Origin: an uncultured Chloroflexia bacterium
GTDB taxonomy: Bacteria; Chloroflexota; Limnocylindria; Limnocylindrales; CSP1-4
Assembly (NCBI GenBank): GCA_963826225.1
Contig: CAWGWF010000001.1
Location: forward strand, 2,483,023 to 2,547,022
DNA length: 64,000 nucleotides
Reading direction: 5' to 3'
Shown in pieces: positions 19,403-40,489 of this stretch (positions within the stretch are counted from its first letter, which is position 1; the number at the start of each line of letters is the position of its first letter). The notes under the pieces were generated by a model that was not told the origin of the DNA, searched no databases, and saw only the letters and a list, made by a program, of their open reading frames with translations. The position numbers were made by a program, and so were the translations under genes.

Positions 19403-20524
19403 ATGCACCCAGGCGGGGCACCGGACGTGGTCGTGGTCGGGGGCGGGATCGTGGGAACCGCCACCGCCGCGTTCCTGGCCGGGGCCGGTGCGCGCGTGCT
19501 CGTCCTCGAGCGGGACGGGCTGGCCTCGGGGGCGTCCGGCGCCAATGCCGGCGTGGTCCAGCACCCGTTCGATCCTGTGCTGGCCGTCCTGTACCACGAG
19601 ACCGTGATGCTGTACCGGGACCTGGCGGCGGGCTCGCGCGCCTTCGCGTTTCCGCCGAGCCCGGTCGGGCTGCTGACCCTCTCCGCGTCCGAGGCCACGG
19701 TGCGACGGGAGGCGGAGCGCATCCGCGGCCCGTATCCGGATCTCGGGGTGGAAGTGCTGGATGGGCCGGCGCTCCGCGAGGTCGAGCCGGCGGCGGCCGA
19801 GGGCCTGTGGGCCTGCCGCGTGGATATCGGCTACCCGGTGATGCCGGGCGCCTCGACCTACGCGTACGCGACGCTGGCGGAGGCGCGGGGCGCGGTCATC
19901 CGGATGGGCCGCACGGCCTCGCTGGCGGTCGCCGGCGACGCGGTCGTCGGGGTCCGGGTCGGGGGCGAGGTCATCCCCGCCGGCGCGGTCGTGGCGGCCG
20001 CCGGACCATGGACGCCGGAGCTGCTCGATCCGGCCGGGCGCTGGGCGCCGATCACCCCGCGCTGGGGCGTCGTGGTGGAGGTGGAGCCCGCCTCGCCGCC
20101 GCGGCACGTGCTGGAGGAGGCGGACGAAGACGCCGAGGATGTCGGGGCGGGCGACGGGGCCGAGTCGAGCTTCGCCCTGGTTCCCCAGCTCGGAGCCGCC
20201 GCGGTGGGCGCGACCTTCCTGGTCCGCGAGCCGGATCCGGCGGCCTGGATGGAGCGGATCCTCGTGCGGGCGTCGCGGTTCGTCCCGGGTGTCGCCGAGG
20301 CGCCGATCCGGGGCGTCCGCGCCTGCGCGCGGCCCCAGAGCGCCGACGGCCGGCCGCTCGTCGGGGCCGTTCCGGGCAAGCGGAACCTGTTCGTGTGCGC
20401 GGGGCACGGCCCGTGGGGCATCACGACCGGCCCGGCGTCCGCACGCCTGGTGGCGGACCTCGTCCTGGGCCGTACGCCGGCGATCCCCGCCGAGCTGGAT
20501 CCGGCGCGGTTCGGGGCGCCGTGA
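19403..20524 (+). CDS. FAD-dependent oxidoreductase (DAO / glycine-oxidase-like family)
   Basis: ATG at 19403 preceded by GGGAGG. Dinucleotide-binding VVVVGGGIVGTATAAFLAGAGARVLVLE, C-terminal GHGPWGITTGPASARLVADLV typical of DAO-family enzymes. Confidence 0.75.
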   Translation: MHPGGAPDVVVVGGGIVGTATAAFLAGAGARVLVLERDGLASGASGANAGVVQHPFDPVLAVLYHETVMLYRDLAAGSRAFAFPPSPVGLLTLSASEATVRREAERIRGPYPDLGVEVLDGPALREVEPAAAEGLWACRVDIGYPVMPGASTYAYATLAEARGAVIRMGRTASLAVAGDAVVGVRVGGEVIPAGAVVAAAGPWTPELLDPAGRWAPITPRWGVVVEVEPASPPRHVLEEADEDAEDVGAGDGAESSFALVPQLGAAAVGATFLVREPDPAAWMERILVRASRFVPGVAEAPIRGVRACARPQSADGRPLVGAVPGKRNLFVCAGHGPWGITTGPASARLVADLVLGRTPAIPAELDPARFGAP

Positions 20525-20593: not shown

Positions 20594-20690
20594 TGGCGGG
20601 AGCGCATGGGAGTCGAACCCACCGCGCGACGCCGGGCGCCGCGCCACCGGTTTTGAAGACCGGGGAGCCCACCGGGACCCCTCCGCTCCC
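20594..20690 (-). tRNA. selC: tRNA-Sec (selC), anticodon UCA, long variable arm, 97 nt including CCA
   Basis: Minus-strand read GGGAGCGG-AG-GGGUCC-CGGU-GGGCUC-CC-CCGGU-CUUCAAA-ACCGG-[24-nt extra arm GGCGCGGCG...GUCGCGC]-GUGGG-UUCGACU-CCCAU-GCGCUCCC-G-CCA. This gives a 6-bp D-stem with 4-nt D-loop, a UCA anticodon in a CUUCAAA loop, a 5-bp T-stem and a 7/8-bp acceptor stem. Confidence 0.8.
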
Positions 20691-20759
20691 AGCGCCGATG
20701 GTAGCGCCGCCGCCCGCCTCGGGACCGGGCTGCGCGTCCGGCGTCGTATCCTCCCGCGC

Positions 20760-21821
20760 ATGACCGAGCCGGCCCTCCCCGCGATCCGCCTCACCGACTA
20801 CACCGAGTGCGGCGGCTGCGCCGCGAAGCTCGGCGCGGACCTGCTGGCCGAGGCGCTGGCAGGACTCGGCGCGGGGGACGCGGCTGGGGCGGCGGACCCG
20901 GCCCTGATCGCCGGCCTGGCACCGCCCGACGATGCTGCGGCGTGGCGCGTCTCGGACGACCTGGCGATCCTGGGCACGCTCGACTTCTTCCCGCCGCTCG
21001 TGGACGACCCGGCGGAGTACGGCGAGATCGCGGCGGCCAACGCGCTCTCGGACGTGTTCGCGATGGGCGGTCGGGTGCTGTTCGCGCTGTCGATCGCGGC
21101 CTTCCCGGAGGGCTTCCCGCGCGGGAGCGCTGGCGACGATCCTCGAGGCGGCGGCGGCGAAGGTGCGCGAGGCGGGCGGCCTGCTGGCGGGCGGGCACAC
21201 GATCCGGGACCCCGAGCCGAAGTTCGGGCTGGCCGTGATCGGCGCCGCGCACCCGGACCGGCTGCTGCGAAAGGGCGGCGCGACGCCCGGCGACGTGCTC
21301 GCTGCTCACGAAACGCCTGGGGACCGGGCTGCTGGTGAGCGGTCGGCGCCAGGGTCGCGTCGGGGACGCGGACCTGCGCGCCGCCATTCGACCAGATGCG
21401 AAGCCTCAATCGGGCCGCGTCCGAGGCCCTCGTCCGTCACGGGATCCGCGGCGCCACGGACGTGACGGGGTTCGGGCTCCTGGGTCACGCCCTGGAGATG
21501 GCCCGAGCCTCGGGAGCCCGGCTGGCCTTCGAGGCCGCCGCCCTGCCGGCCCTCGACGGCGCCCTGGATCTGGCACGCGGTGGCGTCGAGACCGATGGCG
21601 CCGGTCACAACCGGCGGTACACGGCCCCGGCGCTGGCGATCGCCGACGCCGTGCCGGAGGCGGCGGCCGCGCTCGCCCACGATCCGCAGACGTCCGGGGG
21701 CCTGCTGGCGGCGGTGCCCCGGGCGGTCCTCGCAGCGGTGGAGGCGGATCTCGCCGCGGCCGGTGTCGCGGCATGGCGGGTCGGATCGGTGGAGCTCGGC
21801 GAGGGCGTCGCCCTGCGCTGA
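20760..21821 (+). pseudogene. selD: selenide, water dikinase SelD, reading frame broken by three apparent +1 frameshifts (about 21126, 21300, 21390); frames 0 to 1 to 2 to 0
   Basis: Segments in successive frames align end-to-end with E. coli SelD: TDYTECGGCAAK...AAFPEGFPRG | ALATILEAAAAKVREAGGLLAGGHTIRDPEPKFGLAV...GDVL | LTKRLGTGLLVSGRRQGRVGDADLRAAI | DQMRSLN...TDVTGFGLLGHALEM...DPQTSGGLL. Divergent from tRNA-Sec, 70 bp away. Confidence 0.7.
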
Positions 21822-26426: not shown

Positions 26427-27863
26427 CTACTCGGCCAGCGCCCGGTCCGCCTCCGCGAGGATCCGGTCCAGATCGGCAAGCACCGCTTCGGGGACAGGGT
26501 CCACCATCGGCCCGGCGAGGATCGCGTCCACCTGCTCTCGTGCCCGGTCGTACATGGACGGCTTCCCGAGCGCGTGCCAGGCGTCGTACGGGGCGCGGCT
26601 CACCAGCGCGGGCTCGTAGAACTCGCCGCTCCGCGCTGCGTGCCGCGTGGACGGCTGGGCCAGGAAGTTGCCGCCGGGCCCCACGTCTGTCACGTCCTCG
26701 AGCAGCTCCGCGCCCTCGCGGCCGTCCACGCCCTCCACCATCCGCAGGGCCAGGTGCGCGAGCTCGTTGTCCACCAGGATCTGCTCCAGGACCAGCGTCT
26801 GGTCGCCGTCCAGCTCGCCGTAGCCGATCAGGATGTCCGCCCCCGCCGAGATCGGCGGCAGCATGGTGACCAGCTTCTCGACGCACGCCTCCGGCCCGAT
26901 GTCGTGCGCATCGCTGGCGCACCCGGCGGCAGTCGTGGGCAGGCCGTAGAAGCGGCCCATGGTCGTGAGGGCGGCGGACTGGATCCCCATCTCCGGCGTC
27001 CCGGCCAGGAAGTTGCCCGACCGGAAGTCCATGGACCCCACGGCGCTGGAGTAGATCATCGGCCGGCCGGGCCTCGCCACCTGGAAGATCACGAACGAGG
27101 ACAGCGCCTCGGCGTTGGCCAGCGCGATGTTGCCCAGCAGCGACGCCGGACCGGTGGTCCCGGGCACCGGCATCGGCATGATCATCACCGGCATATCCCA
27201 CGCGCCGAGGTCCAGGTACGCGTCCAGCATCTCGCCGTCATGGACGAGCGGCGCCACCGGGCAGTAGATGACCGACGCCTCGTGTCGCTCCCGGGCCCGT
27301 GTCTCCCCGCCCGCCAGCGCGGACACGATCGCTCCCAGGTACGGCGCCTGGTCTCGCCGGTGCAGCTCGTGCTGCCCGTGTCTGGAGGTCGCGGTGAGCA
27401 TGGCCGTGAACTCATGGAGCGGCCGGGATGCGACCGGCCGGTCGTTGGCGGCGACCGGCGGCCAGCCCATCACCGCGAGGTCGCACGCCTGGAAGACCCG
27501 CATCGCATCCACGGTGTCCTGCCGGGTCCCATACCGCCGCTCGCCGGTGACGAAGTCCCGGGTGTACGCGGCGGTCCCGTCCATCGCGAACCGGGTGACG
27601 GGCGACGGAAGGGCGTAATCGAAGGCCGGGTTCCGGGCGCCCAGGGTCATCGCCCTCGGCGCCCGGGCCAGGGCGGCCTCCACCAGGGAGCGTGGCATGC
27701 GCACGACACCCGTCGACGCGTCGACCTCTGCCCCGGCCTGCGCCAGCAACGGCGGCGCCACGTCGCCGAGGACCCGGACCCCCGTCTCGGCGAGAATCCG
27801 CAGCGACGCCTCGTGGACACGCGCCTGCTCGTCCGGGGACAGGAACGCTCCCTCCCATCTCAT
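26427..27863 (-). CDS. MttB-superfamily (trimethylamine methyltransferase-like, non-pyrrolysine) methyltransferase, paralog 1
   Basis: 478 aa, full-length MttB-like (PF06253-type). Blocks ASLRILAETGV, VIYCPVAPLVHDGE, MIMPMPVPGTTGPAS, IGYGELDGDQT, DVGPGGNFLAQPST. No in-frame TAG. Confidence 0.85.
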   Translation of the reverse strand: MRWEGAFLSPDEQARVHEASLRILAETGVRVLGDVAPPLLAQAGAEVDASTGVVRMPRSLVEAALARAPRAMTLGARNPAFDYALPSPVTRFAMDGTAAYTRDFVTGERRYGTRQDTVDAMRVFQACDLAVMGWPPVAANDRPVASRPLHEFTAMLTATSRHGQHELHRRDQAPYLGAIVSALAGGETRARERHEASVIYCPVAPLVHDGEMLDAYLDLGAWDMPVMIMPMPVPGTTGPASLLGNIALANAEALSSFVIFQVARPGRPMIYSSAVGSMDFRSGNFLAGTPEMGIQSAALTTMGRFYGLPTTAAGCASDAHDIGPEACVEKLVTMLPPISAGADILIGYGELDGDQTLVLEQILVDNELAHLALRMVEGVDGREGAELLEDVTDVGPGGNFLAQPSTRHAARSGEFYEPALVSRAPYDAWHALGKPSMYDRAREQVDAILAGPMVDPVPEAVLADLDRILAEADRALAE

Positions 27864-29308
27864 CGGGCCGGACCCTCCTCGGCGGCCGCCCGCCGCTGGA
27901 TCTGCGCCAGCTCGCGCTCGACCTCGTCCGGGAACGGCAGCGGCTGGTGGCCGTCGATCGCGGCCCAGGCCACGTCACGGGCCTGCCCGACCACGTCCGG
28001 CCGGCCGGCGGCCTCCCACCGGTCGAACGTCCCGTGGTTGCCGAGCCTGGGGACGAAGAACTCGCCTCCCCGTACGGCGTCCCGCGTCGCCGGGCGCGCC
28101 AGGAAGTCGCCCATCGGGCCGACCTCGTCCAGCGCCTCCACGACGTCCGCCTCGCCCACGCCCGTCCCGATCCCGGCGGCCAGCCGGCGGCACGCCCGGT
28201 AGACCTCCACGTCGATCACCATCTGCTCCAGGCAGAGGGTGGACGCCCCGCCCAGCGAGCCCGGGCCGATCAGGATGTCCGGCCACGAGAGCGCCGGGAG
28301 CGTCCAGTTCAGGGTGCGCTCCCAGGCCGCCTGGACGCCGGTGACGAAGTGGTCCGTGCCGCCGTTGGACGAGATCGCCGGCAGCCCGTGGAAGCGCGCC
28401 ATCTCGGTCACTGCGGCACCCAACAGGGCGTGCTCGGGGCTGCCGCCGCCCCAGCGCCCGCTGCGCGGCTCCATGACCGCCAGCGCGGGCGCGTAGATCA
28501 CGGGCGTGCCCGGCGAGGCCGCCTGGACGAGGCAGATCGTGCCCAGCACCTCGGCATTGCCCAGCACGATCGTGGACCGCAGGCCGGCCGGCGCCGACGA
28601 GCCCATCATCGGCATCGGCATGATCGCGATCGGGACGTCCCAGCCCGACAGCTCCAGGAACGCGTCGGTGTGCTCCTCCTCCATGGCCAGCGGCGAGACC
28701 GGGCAGTACAGCACCGAGTACGGGTGGTCGCGCCGGACCGCGTCCCGGCCGCCGAACATCGCGGCCAGCAGCTCCAGCAGCCAGCGCGCCTCCTCCACCG
28801 ACCCGGGGGCGTCCTGGACGTGCTTGGAGAACAGCCGGAACGTCTCCACCAGGTGCGCCACGGTGACCCCGACGCCGCGGGCGTCCTCGCCGGCGGTCAC
28901 CATCTGCCAGTAGGCACCGATCTCATCGATCGTGTCCACGAGCTTCGTCGCGGCGGCCCAGTCGTCGTGGGTGGCGTCCCGGCGGACGCCGGTGGCCGGG
29001 TCGTAGAACGTCGTGGACTCGCCGTCCGGGATCAGCGTGCACTCACCGGCGTTCATGGGCAGGGCGAAGCCGGGCCGCCGGCCGCCCAGCGAGAACTGCC
29101 GCGGCGCCGCGGCCAGCGACGCCTCCACGAGGGACCGCGGGAACCGGACGCGCCGGTCCCCTTCGTCCACGTCCGCGCCCGCCTCGCCCAGGATGGCACG
29201 CGCCCGCGCGGAGTCGATCCGCATCCCGGTCCGGGCGAGGACCGCCAGCGACTGCTCCTGGATGCCGGCGGTCTCGGCGTCGGTCAGGACGCGCAGCACG
29301 GTGGCCAT
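27860..29308 (-). CDS. MttB-superfamily methyltransferase, paralog 2
   Basis: 482 aa from ATG 29308 (MATVLRVLTDAETAGIQEQSLAVLARTGM...). Same block structure (YCPVSPLAMEE, IMPMPMMGSSAPAG, EVGPMGDFLARPAT). ORF-track extension to 30334 rejected. Confidence 0.85.
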   Translation of the reverse strand: MATVLRVLTDAETAGIQEQSLAVLARTGMRIDSARARAILGEAGADVDEGDRRVRFPRSLVEASLAAAPRQFSLGGRRPGFALPMNAGECTLIPDGESTTFYDPATGVRRDATHDDWAAATKLVDTIDEIGAYWQMVTAGEDARGVGVTVAHLVETFRLFSKHVQDAPGSVEEARWLLELLAAMFGGRDAVRRDHPYSVLYCPVSPLAMEEEHTDAFLELSGWDVPIAIMPMPMMGSSAPAGLRSTIVLGNAEVLGTICLVQAASPGTPVIYAPALAVMEPRSGRWGGGSPEHALLGAAVTEMARFHGLPAISSNGGTDHFVTGVQAAWERTLNWTLPALSWPDILIGPGSLGGASTLCLEQMVIDVEVYRACRRLAAGIGTGVGEADVVEALDEVGPMGDFLARPATRDAVRGGEFFVPRLGNHGTFDRWEAAGRPDVVGQARDVAWAAIDGHQPLPFPDEVERELAQIQRRAAAEEGPAR

Positions 29309-29310
29309 GC

Positions 29311-30801
29311 TCAGGCCATGCCGTTGAGCTCGCCGTCGGCGGCCGCGAGGATCCGGGTCAGCTCCGCGGCCACCGCGTCGTCCAGCGGCTCCGGGTGATG
29401 GTTCGCGCGGATCGCCGCAACGCGCTCCCGGGCCACCTCGTGCGGGTCGCGATACCGGCCGTGGCCCACCATCTCGTGGGTGAGGGCGCGCTTCATCGCC
29501 GTCCGCATGTGCGTGCGGGTGTGCTCCTCGGCCAGGAAGTGGCCGCCCGGCCCGACGGCGGCGATCACGTCCAGGGCCAGCGTCTCGTCGTCCACGGGCA
29601 TGGCCATCAGCGCGTGACGCGCCCGCTGGTACAGGTCGTGGTCGAGCAGGATCGCCTCCGGGTAGAGCAGCGTGTAGGTCCGGTCGAGGCCGAGACCGGT
29701 CACGATCTCCGCGCCCGACAGGCCGCCCTGGAACGGGTCGAGCGCGACCTCCGCGGCGGACTGCCAGGTGCCCGGCGCCGCCGAATCGGTGCCGAAGCAG
29801 CCGGCCAGCGCCGGCAGGCCCCAGTGGTGGGCCATCTCCACCGGCGCGTACCGGCCCCGCCCGTCGAGCGGGTAGCCCACGTACGTCCCCGTGCGGGGAT
29901 CCGCCCAGGCCTTGAGGATCGAGTGGAACATGGGCGCGCCCGGGTACGCCAGCTGGAGCAGCACGACCGCGGAGATCACCTCCGCGTCGCCCAGCGCCAG
30001 CGCCCCGGCGGAGGTGGCCGGCGCCGTCGTGCCCAGGGTCGGCATCGACATGATGCCCACCGGGATGCCGGCCTCGGCCAGGACCAGCGCCGCCTCCAGG
30101 GCTGCGTGGTCCTGCGCGAGCGGCGCGACCGAGCACAGGAGATTGGACAGCATCGGCCGGGCCTTGAGCGCCGCGCGGCTGCCGGCGAGCACGGTCGCCA
30201 TCTCCACCGCGTATCGCGCGGCCGCCTCGCCCTGGACCATCCCCTGGAAGTGCTTGACCGTGTTGTTGTACGCGGCGTCGATCTCGTGGAGCTGCGAGGT
30301 CTGGCCCATGTCCTGGGCGCTCACGGTCGGCCACATGAAGCCGATCGCGGGCAGGGCGTCGCAGATCCGCGCCATCCGCGCCACGTCCTCCTTGCGGGAC
30401 GAACGCTCCAGGCCCGTGTCCGGATCGATCACGGCCACCCCGCAGCCGTCGGTCGTGAAGTAGGAGGTGCCCTCCTGCAGCACGAGGTCGAAGGCCGGGT
30501 TCCGGGCGGCCATGGTGTACGAGCGGGGCGCCTTCGCCACGGCGGCCATCACCAGGTCCCGCGGGAACTTCACGATCTGCGTGGCGGCATCGACGTCGCA
30601 GCCGTGGTCGCCCAGGATCTCCAGGGAACGCTCGTTGGGGAACTTCACCCCCACCGTCTCGAGGATGTGGAGCGTCGCGTCCTGGAGCCGGTCCAGCTGC
30701 TCGTCGTCCAGGAACTGGACGCGCCGGTTGCTGACGATCGGCTCCAGCGGCGGCGTGGGGCTGAAGGTCGCGGTCCCGGTGGCGGGTTCGGTCGTCGTCA
30801 T
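29311..30801 (-). CDS. MttB-superfamily methyltransferase, paralog 3
   Basis: 496 aa from ATG 30801 (GGAG RBS). LCSVAPLAQDHAALE, IMSMPTLGTTAPAT, AVGPGGHFLAEEHT. Confidence 0.85.
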   Translation of the reverse strand: MTTTEPATGTATFSPTPPLEPIVSNRRVQFLDDEQLDRLQDATLHILETVGVKFPNERSLEILGDHGCDVDAATQIVKFPRDLVMAAVAKAPRSYTMAARNPAFDLVLQEGTSYFTTDGCGVAVIDPDTGLERSSRKEDVARMARICDALPAIGFMWPTVSAQDMGQTSQLHEIDAAYNNTVKHFQGMVQGEAAARYAVEMATVLAGSRAALKARPMLSNLLCSVAPLAQDHAALEAALVLAEAGIPVGIMSMPTLGTTAPATSAGALALGDAEVISAVVLLQLAYPGAPMFHSILKAWADPRTGTYVGYPLDGRGRYAPVEMAHHWGLPALAGCFGTDSAAPGTWQSAAEVALDPFQGGLSGAEIVTGLGLDRTYTLLYPEAILLDHDLYQRARHALMAMPVDDETLALDVIAAVGPGGHFLAEEHTRTHMRTAMKRALTHEMVGHGRYRDPHEVARERVAAIRANHHPEPLDDAVAAELTRILAAADGELNGMA

Positions 30802-30820
30802 CGCCCTGGCTCCTTCGTTC

Positions 30821-32320
30821 CTACCGTGTCCCCGCCGGCGCCGCGGTGCGCTGAAGCTCATCGTCGGCCGTGGCGACGATCCGTTCCAGCTCCCGCAGGC
30901 GCGCCGGCTCGAGCGCCGCGGGGTGATGGGTGGCGAGGATCCGGCTCACCTCGTCGCGGGCGGCATCGACGGCGTCGCGCGTCGACCCGTCCGGCGCCGG
31001 CTGCCCGGTGAGCCCCGAGAACTCCAGGCGGCGCAGCCCGTCACGGGTGTGCTGCTCGTACAGGAAATGGGCACGCGGCCCCACCCGGCGCACGACGTCC
31101 AGCGCGAGCGCCTCGGCACTCGTGTCCAGCCCGGCGAGGTTCGCCCGGACGCGCTCGTGGAGATCTGCGTCGAGGACGATCTGCTCCGGATAGCACAGCA
31201 TGCAGGAGGCGAGGAGGCCCATGCCGCTGCCCGTCTCCGCCCCGAGCAGCGCAGCCAGGGTGAGGGACACGGCGGCCTCGGAGGCAGCCTGCCAGCCGGG
31301 CGCCGGGGCGTCGGTCCCGAACACGCCGGCGAGCGTCGGGATCCCCCAGTGGTGCGCGATCTCGACCCCGGCCGCGTATGCGATGTCGCCGTCCCGGCTG
31401 GTGGCGAGGTAGCCCCCGGTGCGGGGGTCCATCACGCCCGTCATGAGGGAGTGGAACACCGGCGCGCCGGGCACCTCCAGCTGGACGAGCGCGAGCGCCG
31501 CGATCACCTCGGCGTCGGCCAGCGCGAGCGTGCCCGCGATCGTGGCCGGCGCCGTCGACCCGGTCGTCGCCATGGACATGAACCCGACCGGGACGCCGGC
31601 CTCCGCAAGGACGAGGGCGCCCTCCATCGCCTCCCCGTCCTGGGCCAGCGGCGCGATCGTGCACACCAGCGCCGACAGCGGCGGGCGGCTCCGCATCGTG
31701 AGCTCGTCGCCTGCGATCACCCGGGCCATGTCCACCGCCGCGCGGGCCGCCGACGCGCCGATGACCGTCTCGGTCTGGACGTGCTTCACGGTGTTGGCGT
31801 ACGAGGCGAGCAGCTCGTGGAGCGGCGCCGTCGCCCGGTGGTCGCCCGCCGTCAGCATCGGCCAGTAGAAGCCGATCGAGGGGAGCGCGTCGGCGACCCG
31901 CGCCATGGTGCCCGTGTCCGCCGCCACGGATGGACGCCGCTGCCGGGTCACGGGATCGATCATCTCGATCCCGGAGCCATCCGTGGCGCAGTAGAACGCC
32001 GTCCCGTCCAGCACCACGTCGTGGGCCGCGGATCGGGCACCCATGGTGTAGAAGCGGGGGGCGCCGGCCATCGCGGACAGCACCAGGTCCGGCGCCAGGC
32101 GCACGATCCCGGTCGCCTCGTCCACGCGGGCGCCGTGCGCTGCGTACCGTGTACGCACGGCAGCCGACGGGCAGTGAACGCCCACCTCGTCGAGGATCGT
32201 GAGCGCGGCTGCCCGCAGGTCCGCCAGCTGTCCGTCGTCCAGGACGCGCAGCCGATAGGCGGGCCTGATCGGGCGCAGGGGCGGCGTCACCGACGCGCCG
32301 TCGCCCACGATCGGCGGCAT
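30821..32320 (-). CDS. MttB-superfamily methyltransferase, paralog 4
   Basis: 499 aa from ATG 32320 (MPPIVGDGASV...). VCTIAPLAQDGEAME, FMSMATTGSTAPAT, RVGPRAHFLYEQHT. ORF-track extension to 33025 rejected. Confidence 0.85.
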   Translation of the reverse strand: MPPIVGDGASVTPPLRPIRPAYRLRVLDDGQLADLRAAALTILDEVGVHCPSAAVRTRYAAHGARVDEATGIVRLAPDLVLSAMAGAPRFYTMGARSAAHDVVLDGTAFYCATDGSGIEMIDPVTRQRRPSVAADTGTMARVADALPSIGFYWPMLTAGDHRATAPLHELLASYANTVKHVQTETVIGASAARAAVDMARVIAGDELTMRSRPPLSALVCTIAPLAQDGEAMEGALVLAEAGVPVGFMSMATTGSTAPATIAGTLALADAEVIAALALVQLEVPGAPVFHSLMTGVMDPRTGGYLATSRDGDIAYAAGVEIAHHWGIPTLAGVFGTDAPAPGWQAASEAAVSLTLAALLGAETGSGMGLLASCMLCYPEQIVLDADLHERVRANLAGLDTSAEALALDVVRRVGPRAHFLYEQHTRDGLRRLEFSGLTGQPAPDGSTRDAVDAARDEVSRILATHHPAALEPARLRELERIVATADDELQRTAAPAGTR

Positions 32321-32325
32321 CCCGG

Positions 32326-33165
32326 TCACATCGTGCCTCCGGGTGCAGTCGCCGCCGGCGATGGTGCGGCGTCCCGGAGCTGCCTGGCGCGCCGGGCGCT
32401 CACCCGCATCGCGACCAGGATCGCGATCGCCGTGCCGCCCACCACCAGCGTCGAGATGGCGTTGATCTCGGGCGTGACGCCGAACCGGATCCGGGAGTAG
32501 ATGTAGAGCGGCAGGGTGGACGACCCCACCCCGGCGTTGAACGACGTGATGATCAGGTCGTCGAACGACAGGGCGAAGCTGATCAGGGCGCCGGCGGCGA
32601 TCGCCGGCCCCAGGAGCGGCAGGGTCACGTAGCGGAGCGTCTCGCGCGGCGTGGCGCCCAGGTCCCGGGCGGCCTCCTCCATCCGCGGGTCCAGCGACAC
32701 CGCCCGTGCCCGGACGATGATCGCCACGTACGAGATCGAGAACGCGATGTGGGCGACGGCGATCTGGAGCATCGACCCGTTGGCGCCCATCAGCAGCGCG
32801 AAGAACAGCAGCAGGCTGATGCCGGTGACCACCTCGGGCGTCACCATCGGCAGCAGGATCAGCGTGTCCGCGGCGCCGGCGGCCCGGCTGGACCGGATGC
32901 GGGCGAGGCCCAGGCCCAGCAGCGTGCCCAGCATGGTCGTGACGATCACCGAGACGAAGGCGACCTGGAGGGTGACGCCCAGCGCGGACAGGAGCGCGTC
33001 GTTCCCGAACAGCTCCGGGTACCACTTGAGCGTGAAGCCGCGCCAGGCGAAGTTGCGCTTCGAATCATTGAACGAGAACAGGATGAGGATGACGATCGGC
33101 GCGAACAGGAACGTGTACACCGCGTACGCGAAGCCGGTCAGGATCGGGTTCCGGTCCCGCCACAT
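32326..33165 (-). CDS. ABC transporter permease, PotC/PotI-like (polyamine/opine-type importer family)
   Basis: 279 aa, six TMS, EAA-like loop DLGATPRETLRYVTLPLLGPAI. Confidence 0.8.
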   Translation of the reverse strand: MWRDRNPILTGFAYAVYTFLFAPIVILILFSFNDSKRNFAWRGFTLKWYPELFGNDALLSALGVTLQVAFVSVIVTTMLGTLLGLGLARIRSSRAAGAADTLILLPMVTPEVVTGISLLLFFALLMGANGSMLQIAVAHIAFSISYVAIIVRARAVSLDPRMEEAARDLGATPRETLRYVTLPLLGPAIAAGALISFALSFDDLIITSFNAGVGSSTLPLYIYSRIRFGVTPEINAISTLVVGGTAIAILVAMRVSARRARQLRDAAPSPAATAPGGTM

Positions 33166-34010
33166 CAGCCGATCACCTCCCGGCGCAGGAAGCGCAGCCC
33201 GGCCAGCGTCCCGGCGATCGTGACCACGATCAGCAGGAACCCGAGTGCCGCCCCGTACGGCCAGTCACGGGCCGACATGAACAGCGTCTGGACGATCTTG
33301 GCGATGGTGGTCGTCTGGGCGCCGCCGAGCAGATCGGGCGTCACGAAGTCCCCGATCGAGGGGATGAACACCAGGATCGCCGCCGCGATGATGCCCGGCA
33401 TCGTGAGCGGCAGCGTGACGTGGAAGAACGCTGCGCGACCGCTGGCGTAGAGGTCCCGGGCGGCGTGGACGAGGGCGGGATCCACGCGGTCGATGGATAC
33501 GTAGAGGGGCAGGATCGCGAACGGCAGGAACCCGTAGGTCATGCCCATGATCACGGCGAAGTCCGTGTTGAGCAGCTGGATCGGCTCCGCCATGCCGAGG
33601 GTCGCCAGCACGCTGTTCACGACCCCGTTGTCACGCAGGATGATCATCCAGGCATAGGTCCGGATCACGAAGCTGGTCCAGAACGGGAGCATGACCAGGA
33701 CGATCAGCAGCGCCTTGTGGCGTCCGCCGTAGCGGCTGATCCAGTACGCCACCGGGTACGCGACGAGAATCGCGAACACCGTGGTCGCCGTCGCGTACTT
33801 GAGCGAGTTGCCGACCGTCGGCAGGAAGTCGGGCTCCAGGGCTCGCCGGTAGTTGTGGAGCCCGAACCCCTCGAACAGGACACCGCCGAACTGGTCGCGG
33901 GTGGCCAGGCTGACCACGAAGATGACGGCCAGCGGGGCGAGGAAGAAGACGAGCAGCCACGAGAGGCCCGGCGCGAACAGGGCTGCGTCGCGAAACCGGC
34001 GTCCGCCCAC
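33165..34010 (-). CDS. ABC transporter permease, PotB/PotH-like
   Basis: 281 aa, six TMS, EAA loop AARDLYASGRAAFFHVTLPLTMPGI. Confidence 0.8.
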   Translation of the reverse strand: MGGRRFRDAALFAPGLSWLLVFFLAPLAVIFVVSLATRDQFGGVLFEGFGLHNYRRALEPDFLPTVGNSLKYATATTVFAILVAYPVAYWISRYGGRHKALLIVLVMLPFWTSFVIRTYAWMIILRDNGVVNSVLATLGMAEPIQLLNTDFAVIMGMTYGFLPFAILPLYVSIDRVDPALVHAARDLYASGRAAFFHVTLPLTMPGIIAAAILVFIPSIGDFVTPDLLGGAQTTTIAKIVQTLFMSARDWPYGAALGFLLIVVTIAGTLAGLRFLRREVIG

Positions 34011-34055
34011 GACGTTGCGATCGGCGGTGAGGTGGCTGCTCGTCGATGCCCGGGG

Positions 34056-35240
34056 TCAGCCGCCTGCCCGCAGCTTCGTCCAGCGGTCCGAGTACTTCTG
34101 CTCGTCCGGCCCGAGGTCCAGGATCTCCTGGAGCTTCTCGACCAGGGCCTGGTCCGGGTTCACCGTGGGATCCGCCAGGATCTCCGGGTCGATGTATGCC
34201 TTGGCGGCCTCGTTGGGCCCCATGTACCCGATGTAGTTGGTGTTGTCGGCCGCGACCTGCGGGTCGAGCATGTAGTTGATGAACGCGTGGGCCGCGATCG
34301 GGTGCTGGGCGCCCTGGAGCAGGACCATCGTGTCCGAGCCGCGGATCCCGCCCTCCTCGGGGATGTAGTAGACGACCGTGTCCCGCTCCTCCTGGACCTG
34401 GTAGACGTCCGCGCCCCAGGCGTGCATCAGCCACACGTCGCCGGTTGACAGCACGCCGATGTCGTCGGTCGTGTACGTGCGCAGCAGCGGCTTCTGCTTC
34501 TCGAGCAGGGCCAGCGCCTCGTCCAGCTCCGTGTCGCTGGTCGTGTTGGCGCTGTACCCGAGCCTGATGAGCGCCGCAGCGAAGACCTCGCGCATGTCGT
34601 CGAGCATCGCCATCTTGCCGGACCACTGCGGATCCCAGAGCGGCTCCCAGGAGGTCAGCTCCCCCTCGATCTTCGCGGTGTCGTAGGCGACCCCCGTGGT
34701 CCACCACATGTACGGCATCGAGTGGGCGTTGCCCGGGTCGTAGCCGGGGTCCTGCCACTCGGCGCCCAGGTTGACCTTGTTCGGGATCAGGCTCAGGTCG
34801 AGGGGCTGGATGAGGTTCCGATCCACGTAGCCCTTGATGTAGGTCGAGGTGGGGAACGTCACGTCGTAGCCGCTGTTGCCGGCGTTGATCTTGGCGTTCA
34901 TGGTCTCGGCGCTGTCGAAGAAGTCGTAGGTGACCTTGACCCCGGTCGCTTCCTCGAACTTCGCGATCGTTTCCTCGCCGATGTAGTCGGCCCAGTTGTA
35001 GACGTACAGCTGGCCCTCCGGCTCGGGGACCGGGGTGGGCTCGGCGGTGGGCTCGGCGGAGGGCTCGGCGGATGCGCCGGGCGTGGCAGGGGCCGCGGTC
35101 GGGGCGGCGGCGGACGGGGAGGCGGCGCCCCCGGAGCACGCGGCGAGGGCCGTCGCCGCGCCCGCGCCGGCCATTCCCTGCAGCATCCGCCGCCGGCTGA
35201 TCGGTCGCCGGGGCACCCAGATGCGCTCGATGTCACTCAC
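34056..35240 (-). CDS. ABC transporter periplasmic substrate-binding lipoprotein, PotD/PotF family
   Basis: 394 aa. Tat/lipoprotein signal RRRMLQGMAGAGAATALAACSG. LYVYNWADYIGEETIAKFEEATGVKVTYDFF is a PotD/PotF-type N-terminal signature. Confidence 0.8.
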   Translation of the reverse strand: MSDIERIWVPRRPISRRRMLQGMAGAGAATALAACSGGAASPSAAAPTAAPATPGASAEPSAEPTAEPTPVPEPEGQLYVYNWADYIGEETIAKFEEATGVKVTYDFFDSAETMNAKINAGNSGYDVTFPTSTYIKGYVDRNLIQPLDLSLIPNKVNLGAEWQDPGYDPGNAHSMPYMWWTTGVAYDTAKIEGELTSWEPLWDPQWSGKMAMLDDMREVFAAALIRLGYSANTTSDTELDEALALLEKQKPLLRTYTTDDIGVLSTGDVWLMHAWGADVYQVQEERDTVVYYIPEEGGIRGSDTMVLLQGAQHPIAAHAFINYMLDPQVAADNTNYIGYMGPNEAAKAYIDPEILADPTVNPDQALVEKLQEILDLGPDEQKYSDRWTKLRAGG

Positions 35241-36439
35241 GGTCGTTCCTCCTCTTGCGCGTGCGCCTCCACGGCGCGCTCCAGGACCAGCACGTCCGAC
35301 GGATTCCAGTCCAGCCGTACCCGGTCACCGGGCGCCGGCCGCTCAACGGTCCTTGGCACGACGGCCGTCAGCACCAGACCACCGTCGGTCCGGACCTGGT
35401 GGCTGACGGATGTGCCCAGATAGGCGCTCTGCAGCAGATGGCCCCGGAGCACCGGCCTCGGGTCGGCGGCGGCCGCGGCCTCGCCGTCCCGTGCCAGGCG
35501 CATCGCCTCCGGGCGGATCGCAAGCTCGACGGCCGCTCCCACGGCCGGTGCCGCCGCGGCCGTCCGATCGTCGGCCGACGCCGCCGCGGCCAGGCAGCGC
35601 TCCCCGCCGTCCAGGCGCACCACCAGCTCGCCGGCCGCCATGGACTCGATCACGCCCGCGAGCAGGTTGGTGGTGCCGATGAAGTCGGCGACGAAGCGGG
35701 TGGCCGGCCGGTCGTAGAGCTCCTCGGGGGCGCCCAGCTGCTCCACGTGGCCGCCGCGCATCACGGCGATCCGGTCGGACAGCGCCAGCGCCTCCTCCTG
35801 GTCGTGGGTGACGTACACGAAGGTGATCCCGACCTCCAGCTGGACGCGCTTGAGCTCCACCTGGAGCTGGCGGCGCAGCTTGAGGTCCAGCGCCCCGAGC
35901 GGCTCGTCGAGCAGCAGCACCGTGGGCTCGCACACGAGCGCGCGGGCCAGCGCGACCCGCTGCTGCTGGCCACCGGACAGCTGCTCCGGGCGCCGCTTGT
36001 CGTAGCCCGGCAGGTGGACCAGGTCGAGCGCCGCCCCGACGCGGCGCCTGATGTCCGCGTCCTGGGTCTTGCGGCGGCGGAGCCCGAAGGCGACGTTCTC
36101 GAACACGGTCAGGTGGGGGAACAGCGCGTAGCTCTGGAACACCATGTTCACCGGCCGGCGCTCCGGGGGCTCGTCGGTGATGTCCCGGCCCAGGAGCTCG
36201 ATGCGGCCGCTGGTGGGGTACTCGAAGCCCCCGATCATCCGCAGGGTCGTCGTCTTGCCGCAGCCGGACGGGCCGAGCAGCGAGAAGAACTCGCCGCTCT
36301 GGATGTCGAGCGACACGCCGTCCACCGCGGTGACATCCGCGAAGCGCTTGGTGAGGTCGACGAGGCGCAGCTCGACGCCGCCAGCGACGGGGCTCGTCAC
36401 CGGGGTCCTCGCCTGCGAGCCGTGGACCGAACCATGCAC
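35237..36439 (-). CDS. ABC transporter ATP-binding protein, PotA-like with C-terminal TOBE-like domain
   Basis: Walker A LLGPSGCGKTT, signature LSGGQQQRVALARAL, Walker B LLLDEPLGALD, H-loop VTHDQ. Confidence 0.85.
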   Translation of the reverse strand: MHGSVHGSQARTPVTSPVAGGVELRLVDLTKRFADVTAVDGVSLDIQSGEFFSLLGPSGCGKTTTLRMIGGFEYPTSGRIELLGRDITDEPPERRPVNMVFQSYALFPHLTVFENVAFGLRRRKTQDADIRRRVGAALDLVHLPGYDKRRPEQLSGGQQQRVALARALVCEPTVLLLDEPLGALDLKLRRQLQVELKRVQLEVGITFVYVTHDQEEALALSDRIAVMRGGHVEQLGAPEELYDRPATRFVADFIGTTNLLAGVIESMAAGELVVRLDGGERCLAAAASADDRTAAAAPAVGAAVELAIRPEAMRLARDGEAAAAADPRPVLRGHLLQSAYLGTSVSHQVRTDGGLVLTAVVPRTVERPAPGDRVRLDWNPSDVLVLERAVEAHAQEEERP

Positions 36440-36799: not shown

Positions 36800-38722
36800 A
36801 TGCCGAAGGAGTACGTCCGCCTGACCACGCCGCTCGTGCGCGACGGCGACCGCCGCTCCGGGGCGCCTCTCCGCCCAGCCAGCTGGGACGAGGCGCTGCA
36901 GAGGACGGTCGACGGGCTCCGGGCGGCAGGCGAGGCGCACGGCTCCCGGACGTACGGGATCTTCAGCTGCAGCCGCTCCACCAACGAGGTGAACTTCGCG
37001 GCCGGCAAGTTCTCCCGGGTCGTCCTGGGCAGCAACAACATCGACAGCTGCAACCGCACCTGACACGCCCCCTCTGTCGCCGGTCTGGCGACCGTGTTCG
37101 GCGCTGGCGGGTGCACCAGCTCATACCGTGAGATCGAGGAGACGGACGTCATCCTCCTGTGGGGCAGCAACGCCCGGGAGACGCATCCGATCTTCTTCCA
37201 CCACCTCCTGAAGGGGGTCCGCAACGGTGCCCGGCTGTACGCCGTGGACCCGCGGCGCACCTCGTCCGCGGAGTGGGCCGACCTGTGGCTGGGCCTGGAC
37301 GTCGGGACGGACATCGTGATGGCCAACGCGATGGGCCGCGAGATCATCGCCGCCGGGCTGGCCGACGAGGAGTTCATTCACCGGGCCACGACCGGCTTCG
37401 AGGCCTACAAGGCGACGGTGGAGCCCTACACGCTGGAGCGCGCGCAGCGCGAGACCGGCGTCCCGGCCGATGCGATCCGCGAGGCGGCGCACGCGTACGC
37501 CACCGCCAACCGGGCCATGATCTGCTGGACGCTGGGCATCACGGAGCACCACAACGCGGTGGACAACGTGCTGGCGCTCATCAACCTGTCGCTGCTGACG
37601 GGGCACGTGGGCAAATGGGGCAGCGGCCTCAACCCGCTCCGGGGCCAGAACAACGTCCAGGGTGGCGGCGACAGCGGCGCGCTGCCGGACCGGCTGCCGG
37701 GCTTCCAGCACGTGGAGAACGACGAGATCCGCGCCCGCTTCGACAAGGCGTGGGGCGTCACGGTCCCGCCCCGCCGCGGATGGAACCTCACGGCGATGTA
37801 CGACGCGATGGAGCGCGGGGACCTCACGGCCCTCTACTGCATCGGCGAGAACCCGGTCCAGTCCGAGGCGGACGGGCATCGCGTGCGGCGTCTGCTCGAG
37901 GGACTCGAGTTCATGGCCGTCCAGGACATCTTCCTGACCGCCACCGCCGAGCTGGCGGACGTGGTCCTCCCGGCCGCGGCCGCTTGGGCCGAGACCGACG
38001 GCACGGTCACCAACTCCGAGCGGCGCGTTCAGCGCGTGCGCAAGGCGCTGGATCCGCCGGGCGATGCCCGCGACGACCTGTGGATCATCTTCGAGCTGGC
38101 GCGCCGGATGGGCCACGACTGGGGCGAGGCCTCCGCCGAGGCCGCCTGGAACGAGTTCCGGACGCTCTCGCCCGCGCACACCGGGATGAGCTACGCGCGG
38201 CTCGAGGCCGAGGACGGGCTCCAGTGGCCGTGCTACGACGAGACCCACCCCGGCGAGCCGTTCCTCCACTCGCGGCTGTGGGCGAACCCCGTGCCCGGCA
38301 ACCGGGCGCCGTTCGTGCCCGTTGAGCACGACCCGCCGGTGGAGGCGCTGGACGACGAGTTCCCGATGCGTCTCACCACGGGCCGCCACCTGGACTCGTA
38401 CAACACGGGCGTCCAGTCCGGTCCGCTGCGATACCCGAAGCGTCGCCGCGAGGCGATCGACCTGTGCCCGGAGGATCTGCTCCGGATGGGCCTGGCCGAG
38501 GGTGACATGGTGCGGATCGTGTCCCGCCGCGGTGCCGTCGAGGCACCCGTGCGGGTGGATCGCTCGCTGCGTCCCGGCCTCGCGTTCATGACCCTGCACA
38601 GCCCGGACGAGGTGGACGTCAACGTCCTGACGATCGACGCCACGGACTGGAAGTCCGGCACGGCCGAGTTCAAGGCCGCAGCGGTCCGCATCGAGAAGCT
38701 CGGCGCGCCGGTCGCGGGGTAG
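36800..38722 (+). CDS. formate-dehydrogenase-like molybdopterin (bis-MGD) oxidoreductase catalytic subunit, selenoprotein (TGA 37061..37063 read as Sec), lacking the N-terminal Fe-S domain
   Basis: ORFs 36800..37063 and 37094..38722 are in one frame across a single TGA. The context SNNIDSCNRT-U-HAPSVAGL matches the E. coli FdhF Sec140 context SNNVDCCARV-U-HGPSVAGL. Full FdhF-like MopB and C-terminal MGD domains follow. The protein starts at the position equivalent to FdhF residue ~60 (no CxxCxxC cluster). Confidence 0.8.
37064..37096 (+). other. SECIS-like mRNA hairpin immediately 3' of the Sec UGA
   Basis: CACGCCCCCUCU-GUCGCC-GGUCU-GGCGAC: 6-bp stem with GGUCU apical loop starting 13 nt after UGA. 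Resembles the E. coli fdhF SECIS (GCA-GGUCU-GCA apex). Confidence 0.55.
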
Positions 38723-40312: not shown

Positions 40313-40489
40313 CCACGGGACTCCGGCCGGTGGATCCGCCGCGGATCCGCCGGCCGACTCCGTAGCCGCAGCGGCCGCGGGCACCGGCGCCGCGGCCACC
40401 GACCCCGTTGCCGCGCCGCCCGCGGGCACCGGCATCGCGACGCCGGCCGCAACCCACGAAGGGCCGAACGACGGGTCGGAAGACGACCG

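What the first reader, a model, noticed from the sequence alone, without database searches (positions are those of the whole stretch)
26427..36439. Four tandem MttB-superfamily methyltransferase paralogs directly downstream of a PotABCD-type ABC importer, with no corrinoid-protein gene in the window
Seen in sequence: four consecutive, intact, ~480-500 aa non-pyrrolysine MttB homologs (26427-32320, minus strand) follow a PotA/B/C/D-like importer, all co-directional and tightly packed. The established non-Pyl MttB homologs (MtgB, MtpB, MtcB, MtyB; glycine betaine, proline betaine, carnitine, gamma-butyrobetaine) work with a cognate corrinoid protein and a methylcorrinoid:THF methyltransferase, normally encoded adjacent. 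Neither partner is in this 64-kb window. A PotD/F-type binding protein (polyamine/opine class) rather than an OpuAC-type betaine binder is also unusual. Inference: a multi-substrate quaternary-amine or polyamine uptake-and-demethylation island, possibly using a distant or non-canonical methyl acceptor.
Basis: partly seen in the sequence, partly recalled or inferred. Interest (0 to 1): 0.8.

Follow-up and report, generated by a model that had tools for sequence, protein, structure and literature searches.

The report
Four-paralog MttB methyltransferase operon with importer
A soil or freshwater Chloroflexota bacterium carries one tight operon with a polyamine-type importer and four old, distinct MttB-family methyltransferases; their vitamin-B12 carrier protein is missing here but sits next to the same operon in related genomes, so this is an ordinary B12-dependent demethylation system with unknown, probably non-acidic, amine substrates.

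Summary
The minus strand at 26427-36439 carries an eight-gene operon: potA, a PotD/F-like binding protein, potB, potC and four intact MttB-family genes (PF06253, E 1e-59 to 1e-77) with no internal stop codon. No corrinoid protein, pterin-binding methyltransferase or DUF1638 gene lies anywhere in the 64 kb.

The four paralogs are 30-50% identical to each other. Each has a one-to-one ortholog in related Limnocylindria-type MAGs. In at least five of those species the same potBC plus four-MttB block ends directly in a corrinoid protein with the DxHxxG motif. In L003 it is also preceded by pterin-binding and DUF1638 genes. The family is therefore canonically corrinoid-dependent. In this lineage the partners are unlinked, as already described for Eubacterium limosum and Ruegeria pomeroyi.

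I could not locate the partner genes in the source genome, because the searches were saturated.

What is new is modest. None of the four paralogs keeps the glycine-betaine-binding residues of MtgB. That includes Arg312, which all characterised quaternary-amine members retain. The binding protein keeps PotD's acidic and aromatic core, with a Trp255-to-Gly change shared by its orthologs. Together these point to non-acidic cationic methylated amines as substrates.

Interest is moderate to low.

The parts
35237..36439 (-). potA-like ABC ATPase, first gene of the operon
   Evidence: Pfam ABC_tran plus TOBE_2. NCBIfam TIGR01187 potA subfamily scores 361 bits against a cutoff of 355.6. It overlaps the next gene by 4 nt.
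34056..35240 (-). PotD/PotF-family solute-binding lipoprotein with a TAT signal, a lipobox and a long Ala/Pro/Glu-rich linker
   Evidence: Pfam SBP_bac_8 and TAT_signal. PDB hits to spermidine/putrescine-binding proteins at E 2e-54. Scores are below the PotD and PotF equivalog cutoffs. Of the PotD ligand residues, Y37, E171, W229, D257 and Y293 are kept in the window and all three orthologs, and position 168 stays acidic. W34 and an acidic residue at position 36 are kept in the window but not in every ortholog. W255 is Gly in all four sequences compared. The N-terminus reads SRRRML...ALAAC.
33165..34010 (-). potB-like permease
   Evidence: Pfam BPD_transp_1. Best NCBIfam model is PotB, E 1e-66, below cutoff.
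32326..33165 (-). potC-like permease
   Evidence: Pfam BPD_transp_1. Best NCBIfam model is PotC, E 4e-67, below cutoff.
30821..32320 (-). MttB-family methyltransferase, orthogroup 'P4'. The start may instead be the GTG at 32329.
   Evidence: PF06253 E 7.6e-59. It is 71% identical to the L001 ortholog, 63% to the L003 ortholog and 50% to P3. The MtgB R312 position is Leu and the Pyl334 position is Gly.
29311..30801 (-). MttB-family methyltransferase, orthogroup 'P3'
   Evidence: PF06253 E 8.5e-67. A GAAGGAG ribosome-binding site precedes the ATG at 30801. It is 74% identical to the L001 ortholog and 66% to the L003 ortholog. The R312 position is Leu and the Pyl position is Gly.
27860..29308 (-). 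MttB-family methyltransferase, orthogroup 'P2'
   Evidence: PF06253 E 3.8e-63. It is 82% identical to the L001 ortholog and 55% to the L003 ortholog. The R312 position is Ile and the Pyl position is Gly.
26427..27863 (-). MttB-family methyltransferase, orthogroup 'P1', last gene of the operon. In sister lineages its ortholog is followed directly by the corrinoid protein gene.
   Evidence: PF06253 E 3.5e-77. A GAGGAGG ribosome-binding site is present. It is 100% identical to P0001, which lies on a 2,686,480-nt contig. It is 64-66% identical to the orthologs in L003, L008, L009 and L014 and 60% to the one in L018, all of which precede a corrinoid gene. The R312 position is Thr and the Pyl position is Ala.
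19412..20524 (+). FAD-dependent oxidoreductase (DAO family). It may be functionally linked. Its ortholog lies directly downstream of the P4-type gene in the closest relatives.
   Evidence: Pfam DAO E 5e-49. It is 62% identical to the L001 DAO that follows P4 there.
36800..38722 (+). Selenocysteine-type formate dehydrogenase catalytic subunit, divergent from potA. It is a conserved neighbour of the MttB genes in the closest relatives and a possible end point of methyl-group oxidation.
   Evidence: Molybdopterin and Molydop_binding domains. An in-frame TGA at 37061-37063 sits in the motif CNRT-U-HAPSVAGL. It is 88-93% identical to the Fdh that lies divergent from the P2-P1 pair in L001.

Best explanation
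Proposed mechanism:
1. The lipid-anchored PotD/F-like binding protein captures a positively charged amine outside the cell.
2. PotA, PotB and PotC import it.
3. Each of the four MttB-family enzymes (TIM-barrel 'MT1' methyltransferases) takes a methyl group from its own N-methylated substrate. It passes the methyl to the Co(I) centre of a small corrinoid protein.
4. A pterin-binding 'MT2' enzyme moves the methyl to tetrahydrofolate.
5. The methyl group is then oxidised or assimilated, possibly ending at the neighbouring NAD-linked formate dehydrogenases.

In this genome the corrinoid protein, MT2 and the reactivation factor are encoded outside the 64-kb window and are shared by the four MT1 enzymes.

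Shown here:
- The gene content, operon structure and family membership.
- One-to-one orthology with operons that do carry the partner genes.
- Purifying selection on the four paralogs.
- Absence of the MtgB substrate-binding residues.

Inferred:
- Corrinoid dependence in this particular genome.
- The substrate class, which I take to be non-acidic cationic methylated amines such as methylated polyamines or choline-like compounds.
- The link to formate oxidation.
For: Family membership and conserved residues:
- All four genes are full-length PF06253 members. They match solved MttB at E 1e-54 to 1e-58 and MtgB at 1e-42 to 1e-51.
- Gly110 of MttB, whose Gly110-Thr111 peptide N-H hydrogen-bonds the corrin ring (PMC9842639), is conserved in all four.

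Comparative context:
- Relative L003 has Pterin_bind, DUF1638, potA-D-B-C, four MttB genes and a B12-binding_2 plus B12-binding protein, in that order.
- L008, L009, L014 and L018 show potBC, the MttB genes and then a corrinoid gene. L010 shows P2, P1 and the corrinoid gene.
- Those corrinoid proteins carry the GDIHEIGKN (DxHxxG) motif.
- Each window paralog has one clear ortholog in L003 (55-66% identity) and in L001 (71-82%). The paralogs are only 30-50% identical to each other.

Functional constraint:
- dN/dS against L001 and L004 is 0.19-0.31 for P1-P4.

Precedent for unlinked, shared partners:
- E. limosum (PMC8604678).
- R. pomeroyi, where up to seven PF06253 paralogs are proposed to share one MtgC (PMC12478193).
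- mttB and mttC have been reported in Limnocylindria MAGs (PMC11264602).

Substrate class:
- The MtgB residues Y97, R312, H348 and F356 are replaced by T/E/C/S, T/I/L/L, a gap, and D/A/Y/C.
- R312 is reported as conserved in MtcB, MtpB, MthB and MtyB, where it binds the acidic group (PMC13080624).
- No Arg or Lys occurs near that position in any ortholog.
- The binding protein keeps PotD's acidic and aromatic ligand residues. W255 is Gly in all four orthologs compared.
Against: - The partner genes were not found in the source genome. Two protein searches with relatives' corrinoid proteins listed no hit on the 2,686,480-nt contig. They also listed none on the known contigs of the five closest relatives.
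- The genome-collection scan did not return that contig either.
- All these searches were saturated. The top 120 hits stopped at 69% and 72% identity, and the predicted identity of the window's ortholog is only about 73-77%. The negative result is therefore weak, but it is not nothing.
- All eight close-clade loci examined lack a corrinoid gene within 10 kb.
- The substrate inference rests on alignments at 26-29% identity.
- The PotD ligand-residue list is from my own memory of the E. coli PotD structure papers, not from a paper read here.
- No experiment exists for any member of these four orthogroups.
Confidence: 0.72

Rival explanations
1. This lineage has lost the dedicated corrinoid protein. 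The four MttB enzymes use a non-canonical acceptor, such as free cobalamin, the B12 domain of another enzyme such as methionine synthase, or direct transfer to another carrier.
For: - No corrinoid gene lies within 64 kb here.
- None lies within 10 kb in eight closely related loci.
- No hit to the source contig appeared in two corrinoid-protein searches.
- Some MttB members, such as MtcB and MtgB, can methylate free cob(I)alamin in vitro (PMC8604678; PMC13080624).
- In Ruegeria the corrinoid subunit is shared with a split methionine synthase.
Against: - The searches were saturated and the expected identity was borderline.
- Orthologs only 64-66% identical sit next to canonical corrinoid genes.
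- The corrin-contacting Gly is conserved.
- Every characterised family member uses a corrinoid (PMC8604678).
Confidence: 0.08
2. The importer is an ordinary polyamine (putrescine/spermidine) transporter that merely sits next to the methyltransferase genes. There is no shared substrate.
For: - The best matches of all four transporter components are PotA, PotB, PotC and PotD/F.
- The acidic residues that bind polyamine amino groups are kept.
- In some relatives the P1 and P2 genes occur away from the pot genes.
Against: - The pot genes stay fused to the P3 and P4-type genes in every lineage examined, down to 60-68% identity. Spacing is operon-like.
- The binding protein is below the PotD and PotF equivalog cutoffs.
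- It carries a W255G change conserved in all four orthologs, plus Y85 and Q327 changes.
Confidence: 0.12
3. It is a standard glycine betaine (MtgB-type) demethylation system with unusual gene order.
For: - MtgB is the best-known non-pyrrolysine member of the family.
- The aerobic MtgBCD system has unlinked genes (PMC12478193).
Against: - All four glycine-betaine-binding residues of MtgB are absent from all four paralogs.
- The MtgB-like S. meliloti protein 4YYC keeps Y97, R312 and H348 in the same alignment.
- Identity to MtgB is only 26-28%.
- The binding protein is not of the betaine-binding class.
Confidence: 0.04
4. The cluster is a decaying remnant left after the partner genes were lost.
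For: - The locus has been rearranged relative to relatives. P3 and P4 are swapped and the DAO and selD genes are displaced.
- Relatives show loss or replacement of P2.
- The nearby selD appears frameshifted.
Against: - All eight ORFs are intact with good ribosome-binding sites.
- dN/dS is 0.19-0.31.
- Codon-position GC is typical of expressed genes.
Confidence: 0.04

Closest known systems
Quaternary-amine:THF methyltransferase systems of Eubacterium limosum (MtpB, MtcB, MtyB and MthB with shared MtqC, MtqA and RamQ)
   Same: - Several non-pyrrolysine MttB-superfamily MT1 paralogs, each with its own substrate.
- Each is encoded next to a transporter.
- All share one corrinoid protein and one MT2 that are encoded in other clusters (PMC8604678).
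   Different: - The transporters there are of the MFS type.
- The characterised enzymes keep the Arg312 equivalent that binds an acidic group (PMC13080624), whereas P1-P4 lack it.
- Here the four MT1 genes lie in one operon with a PotD/F-type ABC importer.
- The organism is a high-GC Chloroflexota, not an acetogenic Firmicute.
MtgBCD glycine betaine methyltransferase of aerobic bacteria (Ruegeria pomeroyi, Sinorhizobium meliloti)
   Same: - PF06253 MT1 genes unlinked from the corrinoid subunit MtgC and the pterin-binding MtgD.
- DUF1638 and RamA-type reactivation genes are associated.
- Up to seven PF06253 paralogs per genome are proposed to share MtgC (PMC12478193).
   Different: - P1-P4 are only 23% identical to the S. 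meliloti homolog 4YYC.
- They lack its Y97, R312 and H348 equivalents.
- Whether the corrinoid protein here is shared with a split methionine synthase was not tested.
MttB, the pyrrolysine-containing trimethylamine methyltransferase of Methanosarcina (PDB 7XCL)
   Same: - Best-scoring solved structure, E 1e-54 to 1e-58 and 27-29% identity.
- Same full-length TIM-barrel family.
- Gly110 is conserved.
- No Arg at the MtgB-312 position and no insertion at H348.
   Different: - No UAG or pyrrolysine. Position 334 is Ala or Gly.
- Tyr364 is replaced by Ile, Ile, Thr and Ser.
- The TIGR02369 score is 310-353 bits against a cutoff of 525.
E. coli PotABCD and PotFGHI polyamine importers
   Same: - Four-component ABC importer with the same families.
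- The binding protein matches at E 1e-50 to 1e-53 and is 33% identical to PotD.
- W34, an acidic residue at position 36, Y37, D168, E171, W229, D257 and Y293 are kept in the window protein. Y37, E171, W229, D257 and Y293 are kept in all orthologs compared.
   Different: - The gene order is A-D-B-C.
- The binding protein is a TAT-exported lipoprotein with a long linker.
- W255 is Gly, Y85 is Thr/Leu/Val and Q327 is Ile/Leu, conserved among orthologs.
- Scores are below the equivalog cutoffs.

Membership tests
MttB superfamily (Pfam PF06253) | Full-length match to the family profile above the gathering score | tested here: met
   Scores are 199-260 bits against a cutoff of 25. Matches cover profile positions about 1-33 through 490-498 of 500 for all four.
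MttB proper (pyrrolysine trimethylamine methyltransferase, TIGR02369) | In-frame UAG encoding pyrrolysine at position 334, Tyr364, and a score above the equivalog cutoff | tested here: not met
   There are no internal stops. Position 334 is A, G, G and G, and Tyr364 is I, I, T and S. Scores are 310-353 bits against a cutoff of 525.
MtgB (glycine betaine:corrinoid methyltransferase) | Glycine-betaine-binding residues Y97, R312, H348 and F356 (PMC13080624) | tested here: not met
   Y97 is T/E/C/S, R312 is T/I/L/L, H348 is a gap and F356 is D/A/Y/C. The control protein 4YYC keeps Y97, R312 and H348 in the same alignment.
Characterised quaternary-amine MttB members (MtcB, MtpB, MtyB, MthB) | Conserved Arg312 equivalent that binds the substrate's acidic group (PMC13080624) | tested here: not met
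   No Arg or Lys occurs at or near that position in P1-P4 or their orthologs. I did not hold the sequences of these four enzymes, so no direct phylogeny was made.
Three-component corrinoid methyltransferase system (MT1 + corrinoid protein + MT2) | Cognate corrinoid protein (B12-binding_2 plus B12-binding, DxHxxG motif) encoded with or near MT1 | tested here: not met
   It is absent from the 64-kb window. It is present directly after the P1 ortholog in L003, L008, L009, L010, L014 and L018.
Three-component corrinoid methyltransferase system (MT1 + corrinoid protein + MT2) | Corrinoid protein and pterin-binding MT2 present somewhere in the same genome | tested here: inconclusive
   Two protein searches and one genome-collection scan returned nothing from the 2,686,480-nt contig. 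All three were saturated or limited to exact 8-residue words.
Three-component corrinoid methyltransferase system (MT1 + corrinoid protein + MT2) | Methyl transfer from substrate to Co(I) corrinoid | not testable with these tools
   This needs enzyme assays.
PotABCD/PotFGHI polyamine ABC importer | ATPase, two permeases and a PotD/F-type binding protein in one operon | tested here: met
PotABCD/PotFGHI polyamine ABC importer | Binding protein reaches the PotD or PotF equivalog score and keeps the full set of ligand residues | tested here: not met
   It scores 189 bits against a PotD cutoff of 582, and 176 bits against a PotF cutoff of 636. Eight of 13 PotD ligand positions are kept, and W255, Y85, Q327, T35 and S83 are changed. 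The residue list is from memory.

The most novel reading that the evidence does not exclude
The four orthogroups would be new MttB subfamilies acting on methylated amines without an acidic group. Candidates are N-methylated polyamines, choline-like amines, or a stepwise demethylation series. The substrate would be delivered by a PotD-derived binding protein whose pocket is enlarged by the Trp255-to-Gly change. That would add a new substrate class and a new transporter pairing to B12-dependent methylotrophy in abundant soil and freshwater Chloroflexota.

A more radical version is that the closest clade works without any dedicated corrinoid protein. My evidence does not exclude it, but it is much less likely, at about 0.05-0.08.
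Probability: 0.35. Interest if true: 0.6.

Novelty: new member of a known kind. Interest (0 to 1): 0.36.

Why it matters
Limnocylindria-type Chloroflexota are abundant in soils and fresh waters. Most of the thousands of MttB-superfamily proteins have no known substrate. This operon pairs four long-diverged MttB enzymes with a modified polyamine-type binding protein, and it is conserved across several species. That makes it a well-defined handle for finding new methylated-amine substrates and for judging how much B12-dependent C1 flux such bacteria carry.

It does not challenge the known mechanism. The missing corrinoid gene reflects gene-order variation that has already been described in other organisms.

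Tried and rejected
Attempts to locate the source genome's corrinoid gene:
- Exact look-up of the window's P1 protein (100% identical to P0001) found no gene on record. The source contig could therefore not be walked.
- I searched the protein database with the L003 and L014 corrinoid proteins and looked for hits on a 2,686,480-nt contig. None appeared in the top 120, which stopped at 69% and 72% identity.
- The genome-contig scan with the L003 corrinoid protein used exact 8-residue words. It returned 80 loci, none from the source contig.
- Calibration shows the expected identity is borderline, so these negatives are inconclusive.

Other checks that added nothing:
- The Rfam scan of the window found only tRNA-Sec and no cobalamin riboswitch.
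- The promoter and terminator scan of the operon found nothing useful.
- A regular-expression survey of the Arg312 position in all 168 MttB genes of the fetched loci was reliable only for close orthologs. It picked the wrong motif in distant ones.
- A literature search for a Pot-transporter and MttB association found nothing relevant.
- The Ticak 2014 paper was not held.

Rejected readings:
- Membership of MtgB or of pyrrolysine-type MttB, because the defining residues are not met.
- Gene decay, because the ORFs are intact and dN/dS is 0.19-0.31.

Full report
**1. What is there**

The window is 73% G+C with very high third-position GC. On the minus strand, 26427-36439 holds eight co-directional genes with junctions from a 4-nt overlap to a 45-nt gap.
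- potA, 35237-36439: ABC_tran plus TOBE_2.
- A solute-binding protein, 34056-35240.
- potB, 33165-34010, and potC, 32326-33165.
- Four MttB-family genes, which I call P4 (30821-32320), P3 (29311-30801), P2 (27860-29308) and P1 (26427-27863).

All four match PF06253 over essentially the whole profile, with E-values from 7.6e-59 to 3.5e-77. They contain no internal stop codon, so no amber codon. P1 and P3 have strong ribosome-binding sites. The only correction is the transporter gene order, which is A-D-B-C.

**2. No partner gene in the window**

Pfam scans of every sizeable ORF in the 64 kb found nothing related to B12. I then used a relative's corrinoid protein, DUF1638 protein and pterin-binding fragment in tblastn against the window. 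The best E-values were 0.17, 0.56 and 0.85. An HMM built from 81 corrinoid proteins and run without filters against the six-frame translation gave a best E-value of 1.8. Rfam found only a tRNA-Sec and no cobalamin riboswitch.

**3. Where it comes from**

P1 is 100% identical to a database protein on a 2,686,480-nt contig. The nearest named relatives are 'Candidatus Limnocylindrales' and Chloroflexota MAGs. Fetched relatives are 'uncultured Chloroflexia' MFD MAGs and Limnocylindria MAGs. The source is most likely a Limnocylindria-type Chloroflexota genome. Corrinoid methyltransferase genes (mttB, mttC) have been reported in Limnocylindria MAGs before (PMC11264602).

**4. The four paralogs are old and individually conserved**

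They are 30-50% identical to each other. They are 26-29% identical to MtgB and MttB, and 23% to the S. meliloti homolog 4YYC. Each has one clear ortholog in other genomes.

| Paralog | Identity to L001 ortholog | Identity to L003 ortholog |
|---|---|---|
| P1 | 82% | 64% |
| P2 | 82% | 55% |
| P3 | 74% | 66% |
| P4 | 71% | 63% |

Against the closest relatives, dN/dS is 0.19-0.31 for all four. These are therefore four maintained functions, not recent duplicates and not decaying copies.

**5. Comparative context answers the missing-partner question**

In L003 (a 2.57-Mb contig, P1 ortholog 64% identical) the gene order is as follows:
- a pterin-binding gene (PF00809),
- DUF1638 (divergent),
- potA, the binding protein, potB, potC,
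- P3-type, P4-type, P2-type, P1-type,
- a 217-aa protein with B12-binding_2 plus B12-binding domains.

The genome-collection scan added four more species with potBC, the MttB genes and then the corrinoid gene: L008, L009, L014 and L018. L010 is partial, showing P2, P1 and the corrinoid gene. Genes beyond the corrinoid gene are unrelated, so the operon ends there. The corrinoid proteins carry the GDIHEIGKN (DxHxxG) motif.

The closest clade comprises L001, L002, L004, L005, L006, L087 and L088, with P1 at 72-85% identity. It has a different layout. A selenocysteine-type formate dehydrogenase lies divergent from P2-P1. Then come selD, a DAO-family oxidoreductase, P4, P3 and potCBDA. No corrinoid gene lies within 10 kb. 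L088 has lost P2, and L087 shows a fused amylase-MttB ORF.

The window combines features of both layouts.
- All four MttB genes are contiguous with the pot genes, as in L003.
- P3 and P4 are swapped in order.
- No corrinoid gene follows P1.
- The Fdh gene is divergent from potA.
- DAO lies about 6 kb and selD about 4.6 kb beyond P1.

**6. Is the partner elsewhere in this genome?**

I could not show it.
- The source contig is not in the gene-position index.
- Protein searches with the L003 and L014 corrinoid proteins listed only the top 120 of about 8,000 hits, stopping at 69% and 72% identity. None was on the source contig or on the known contigs of the closest clade.
- The genome scan used exact 8-residue words and kept 80 of 172 loci, none from the source contig.

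Corrinoid identity tracks P3, P4 and potC identity between lineages. On that basis I expect the window's ortholog to be about 73-77% identical to L014's, which is right at the display limit. The negative result is therefore weak.

**7. Unlinked partners are already known**

In E. limosum the MttB homologs, MtqC, and MtqA/RamQ lie in separate clusters. The authors argue that this allows one shared core with substrate-specific MT1 genes (PMC8604678). In R. pomeroyi the mtgB genes (SPO2108, SPO2134), mtgC (SPO2160) and mtgD (SPO1863) have widely separated locus tags. Up to seven PF06253 paralogs are proposed to share one MtgC (PMC12478193).

**8. What the enzymes probably act on**

MtgB binds glycine betaine through Y97, F356, R312 and H348. 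R312 is reported as conserved in MtcB, MtpB, MthB and MtyB, where it meets the acidic group (PMC13080624). My alignment is anchored by the conserved FYGLP motif. It shows the following for P1-P4:
- R312 is Thr, Ile, Leu and Leu, with no basic residue nearby.
- Y97 is T, E, C and S.
- H348 is a gap, as in MttB.
- F356 is D, A, Y and C.

Orthologs agree within each group. The S. meliloti protein keeps Y97, R312 and H348 in the same alignment, which serves as a control.

The pyrrolysine position is Ala or Gly, and MttB's Tyr364 is not kept, so these are not TMA enzymes of the MttB type. MttB's Gly110 is kept in all four. Its Gly110-Thr111 peptide N-H contacts the corrin ring (PMC9842639).

The binding protein is clearly of the PotD/F class, with E 2e-54 to solved polyamine binders. 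It scores far below the PotD and PotF equivalog cutoffs. Against E. coli PotD numbering:
- Y37, E171, W229, D257 and Y293 are kept in the window and its orthologs, and position 168 stays acidic.
- W34 and an acidic residue at position 36 are kept in the window and in L004 only.
- W255 is Gly in all four orthologs compared.
- Y85 and Q327 become small or hydrophobic residues.

The PotD ligand-residue list is from my memory of the PotD structure papers.

Together these points suggest cationic, non-acidic methylated amines as substrates. This is inference, not demonstration.

**9. Mechanism proposed**

The binding protein and PotABC import the amine. Each MttB paralog methylates a shared Co(I) corrinoid protein. 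A pterin-binding MT2 passes the methyl to tetrahydrofolate. A DUF1638- or RamA-type system reactivates oxidised cobalamin. The methyl group is then oxidised.

The window's two NAD-linked selenocysteine formate dehydrogenase clusters would fit the last step. So would the conserved Fdh neighbourhood in the closest clade. That adjacency may, however, only reflect shared ancestry.

**10. Verdict**

This is a real and well-conserved operon, and a new member of a known kind of system. The absence of the corrinoid gene is a gene-order variant, not evidence for a new acceptor. The unexplored substrate class and the Pot-type pairing give it moderate value as a lead.

Noticed in passing
window 36800-38722 (+) and 46919-49948 (-): Two formate-dehydrogenase-type molybdopterin subunits each carry an in-frame TGA, at 37061-37063 and 48557-48559. 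It sits in the motif C-x-R-T-U-H-A-P-(S/T)-V-A-G-L, so both probably encode selenocysteine. The same split is seen in relatives' gene calls.
   Followed up: partly
window 15307-21806: A complete selenocysteine locus is present: selB 15307-17270 (-), selA 17267-18649 (-), tRNA-Sec 20598-20690 (-, 70 bits) and selD 20769-21806 (+). The selD match to relatives jumps between all three reading frames around 21122, 21290 and 21390. This means either three real frameshifts (a pseudogene) or assembly indel errors.
   Followed up: partly
window 29311-32320 compared with L001 and L003: The order of the P3-type and P4-type MttB genes after potC is swapped in the window relative to all relatives examined. 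The window has potC-P4-P3 and the relatives have potC-P3-P4.
   Followed up: partly
window 60663-63680 (+): Two adjacent proteins of about 500 aa carry paired CXXCH multihaem motifs and weak MtrC/MtrF-like domain matches. Outer-surface-type multihaem cytochromes are unusual for a Chloroflexota genome.
   Followed up: no
window 40313-47690: There are two NuoE/NuoF-like flavoprotein genes next to the formate dehydrogenases. One (43149-46769, -) is a protein of about 1,200 aa that fuses NuoE-like, NuoF-like and GltD-like (Fer4_20, NAD_binding_8) modules.
   Followed up: no
window 13938-14644 (-), 53947-54237 (-), 56904-58208 (+): Toxin-antitoxin genes are present: a PIN and Phd/YefM pair, a ParE-like toxin, and a HipA-like kinase.
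   Followed up: no
L087 6640-9996 and L088 8028-9815: In two close relatives the P2 position holds an alpha-amylase-family gene. In L087 the gene call fuses amylase domains to an MttB domain in one 1,118-aa ORF, which may be a frameshift artefact or a real fusion. In L088 P2 is absent.
   Followed up: no
L014 672-3586: This relative has a fifth MttB gene, an extra P3-type copy 68% identical to the window's P3, upstream of the usual four.
   Followed up: no
L011-L086 (many loci): Most corrinoid genes fetched from Chloroflexota and Acidobacteriota MAGs are followed directly by a different MttB type, 38-47% identical to P3. The 86 fetched loci held 168 MttB genes in all, which shows how large and uncharacterised this family is in soil MAGs.
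   Followed up: partly
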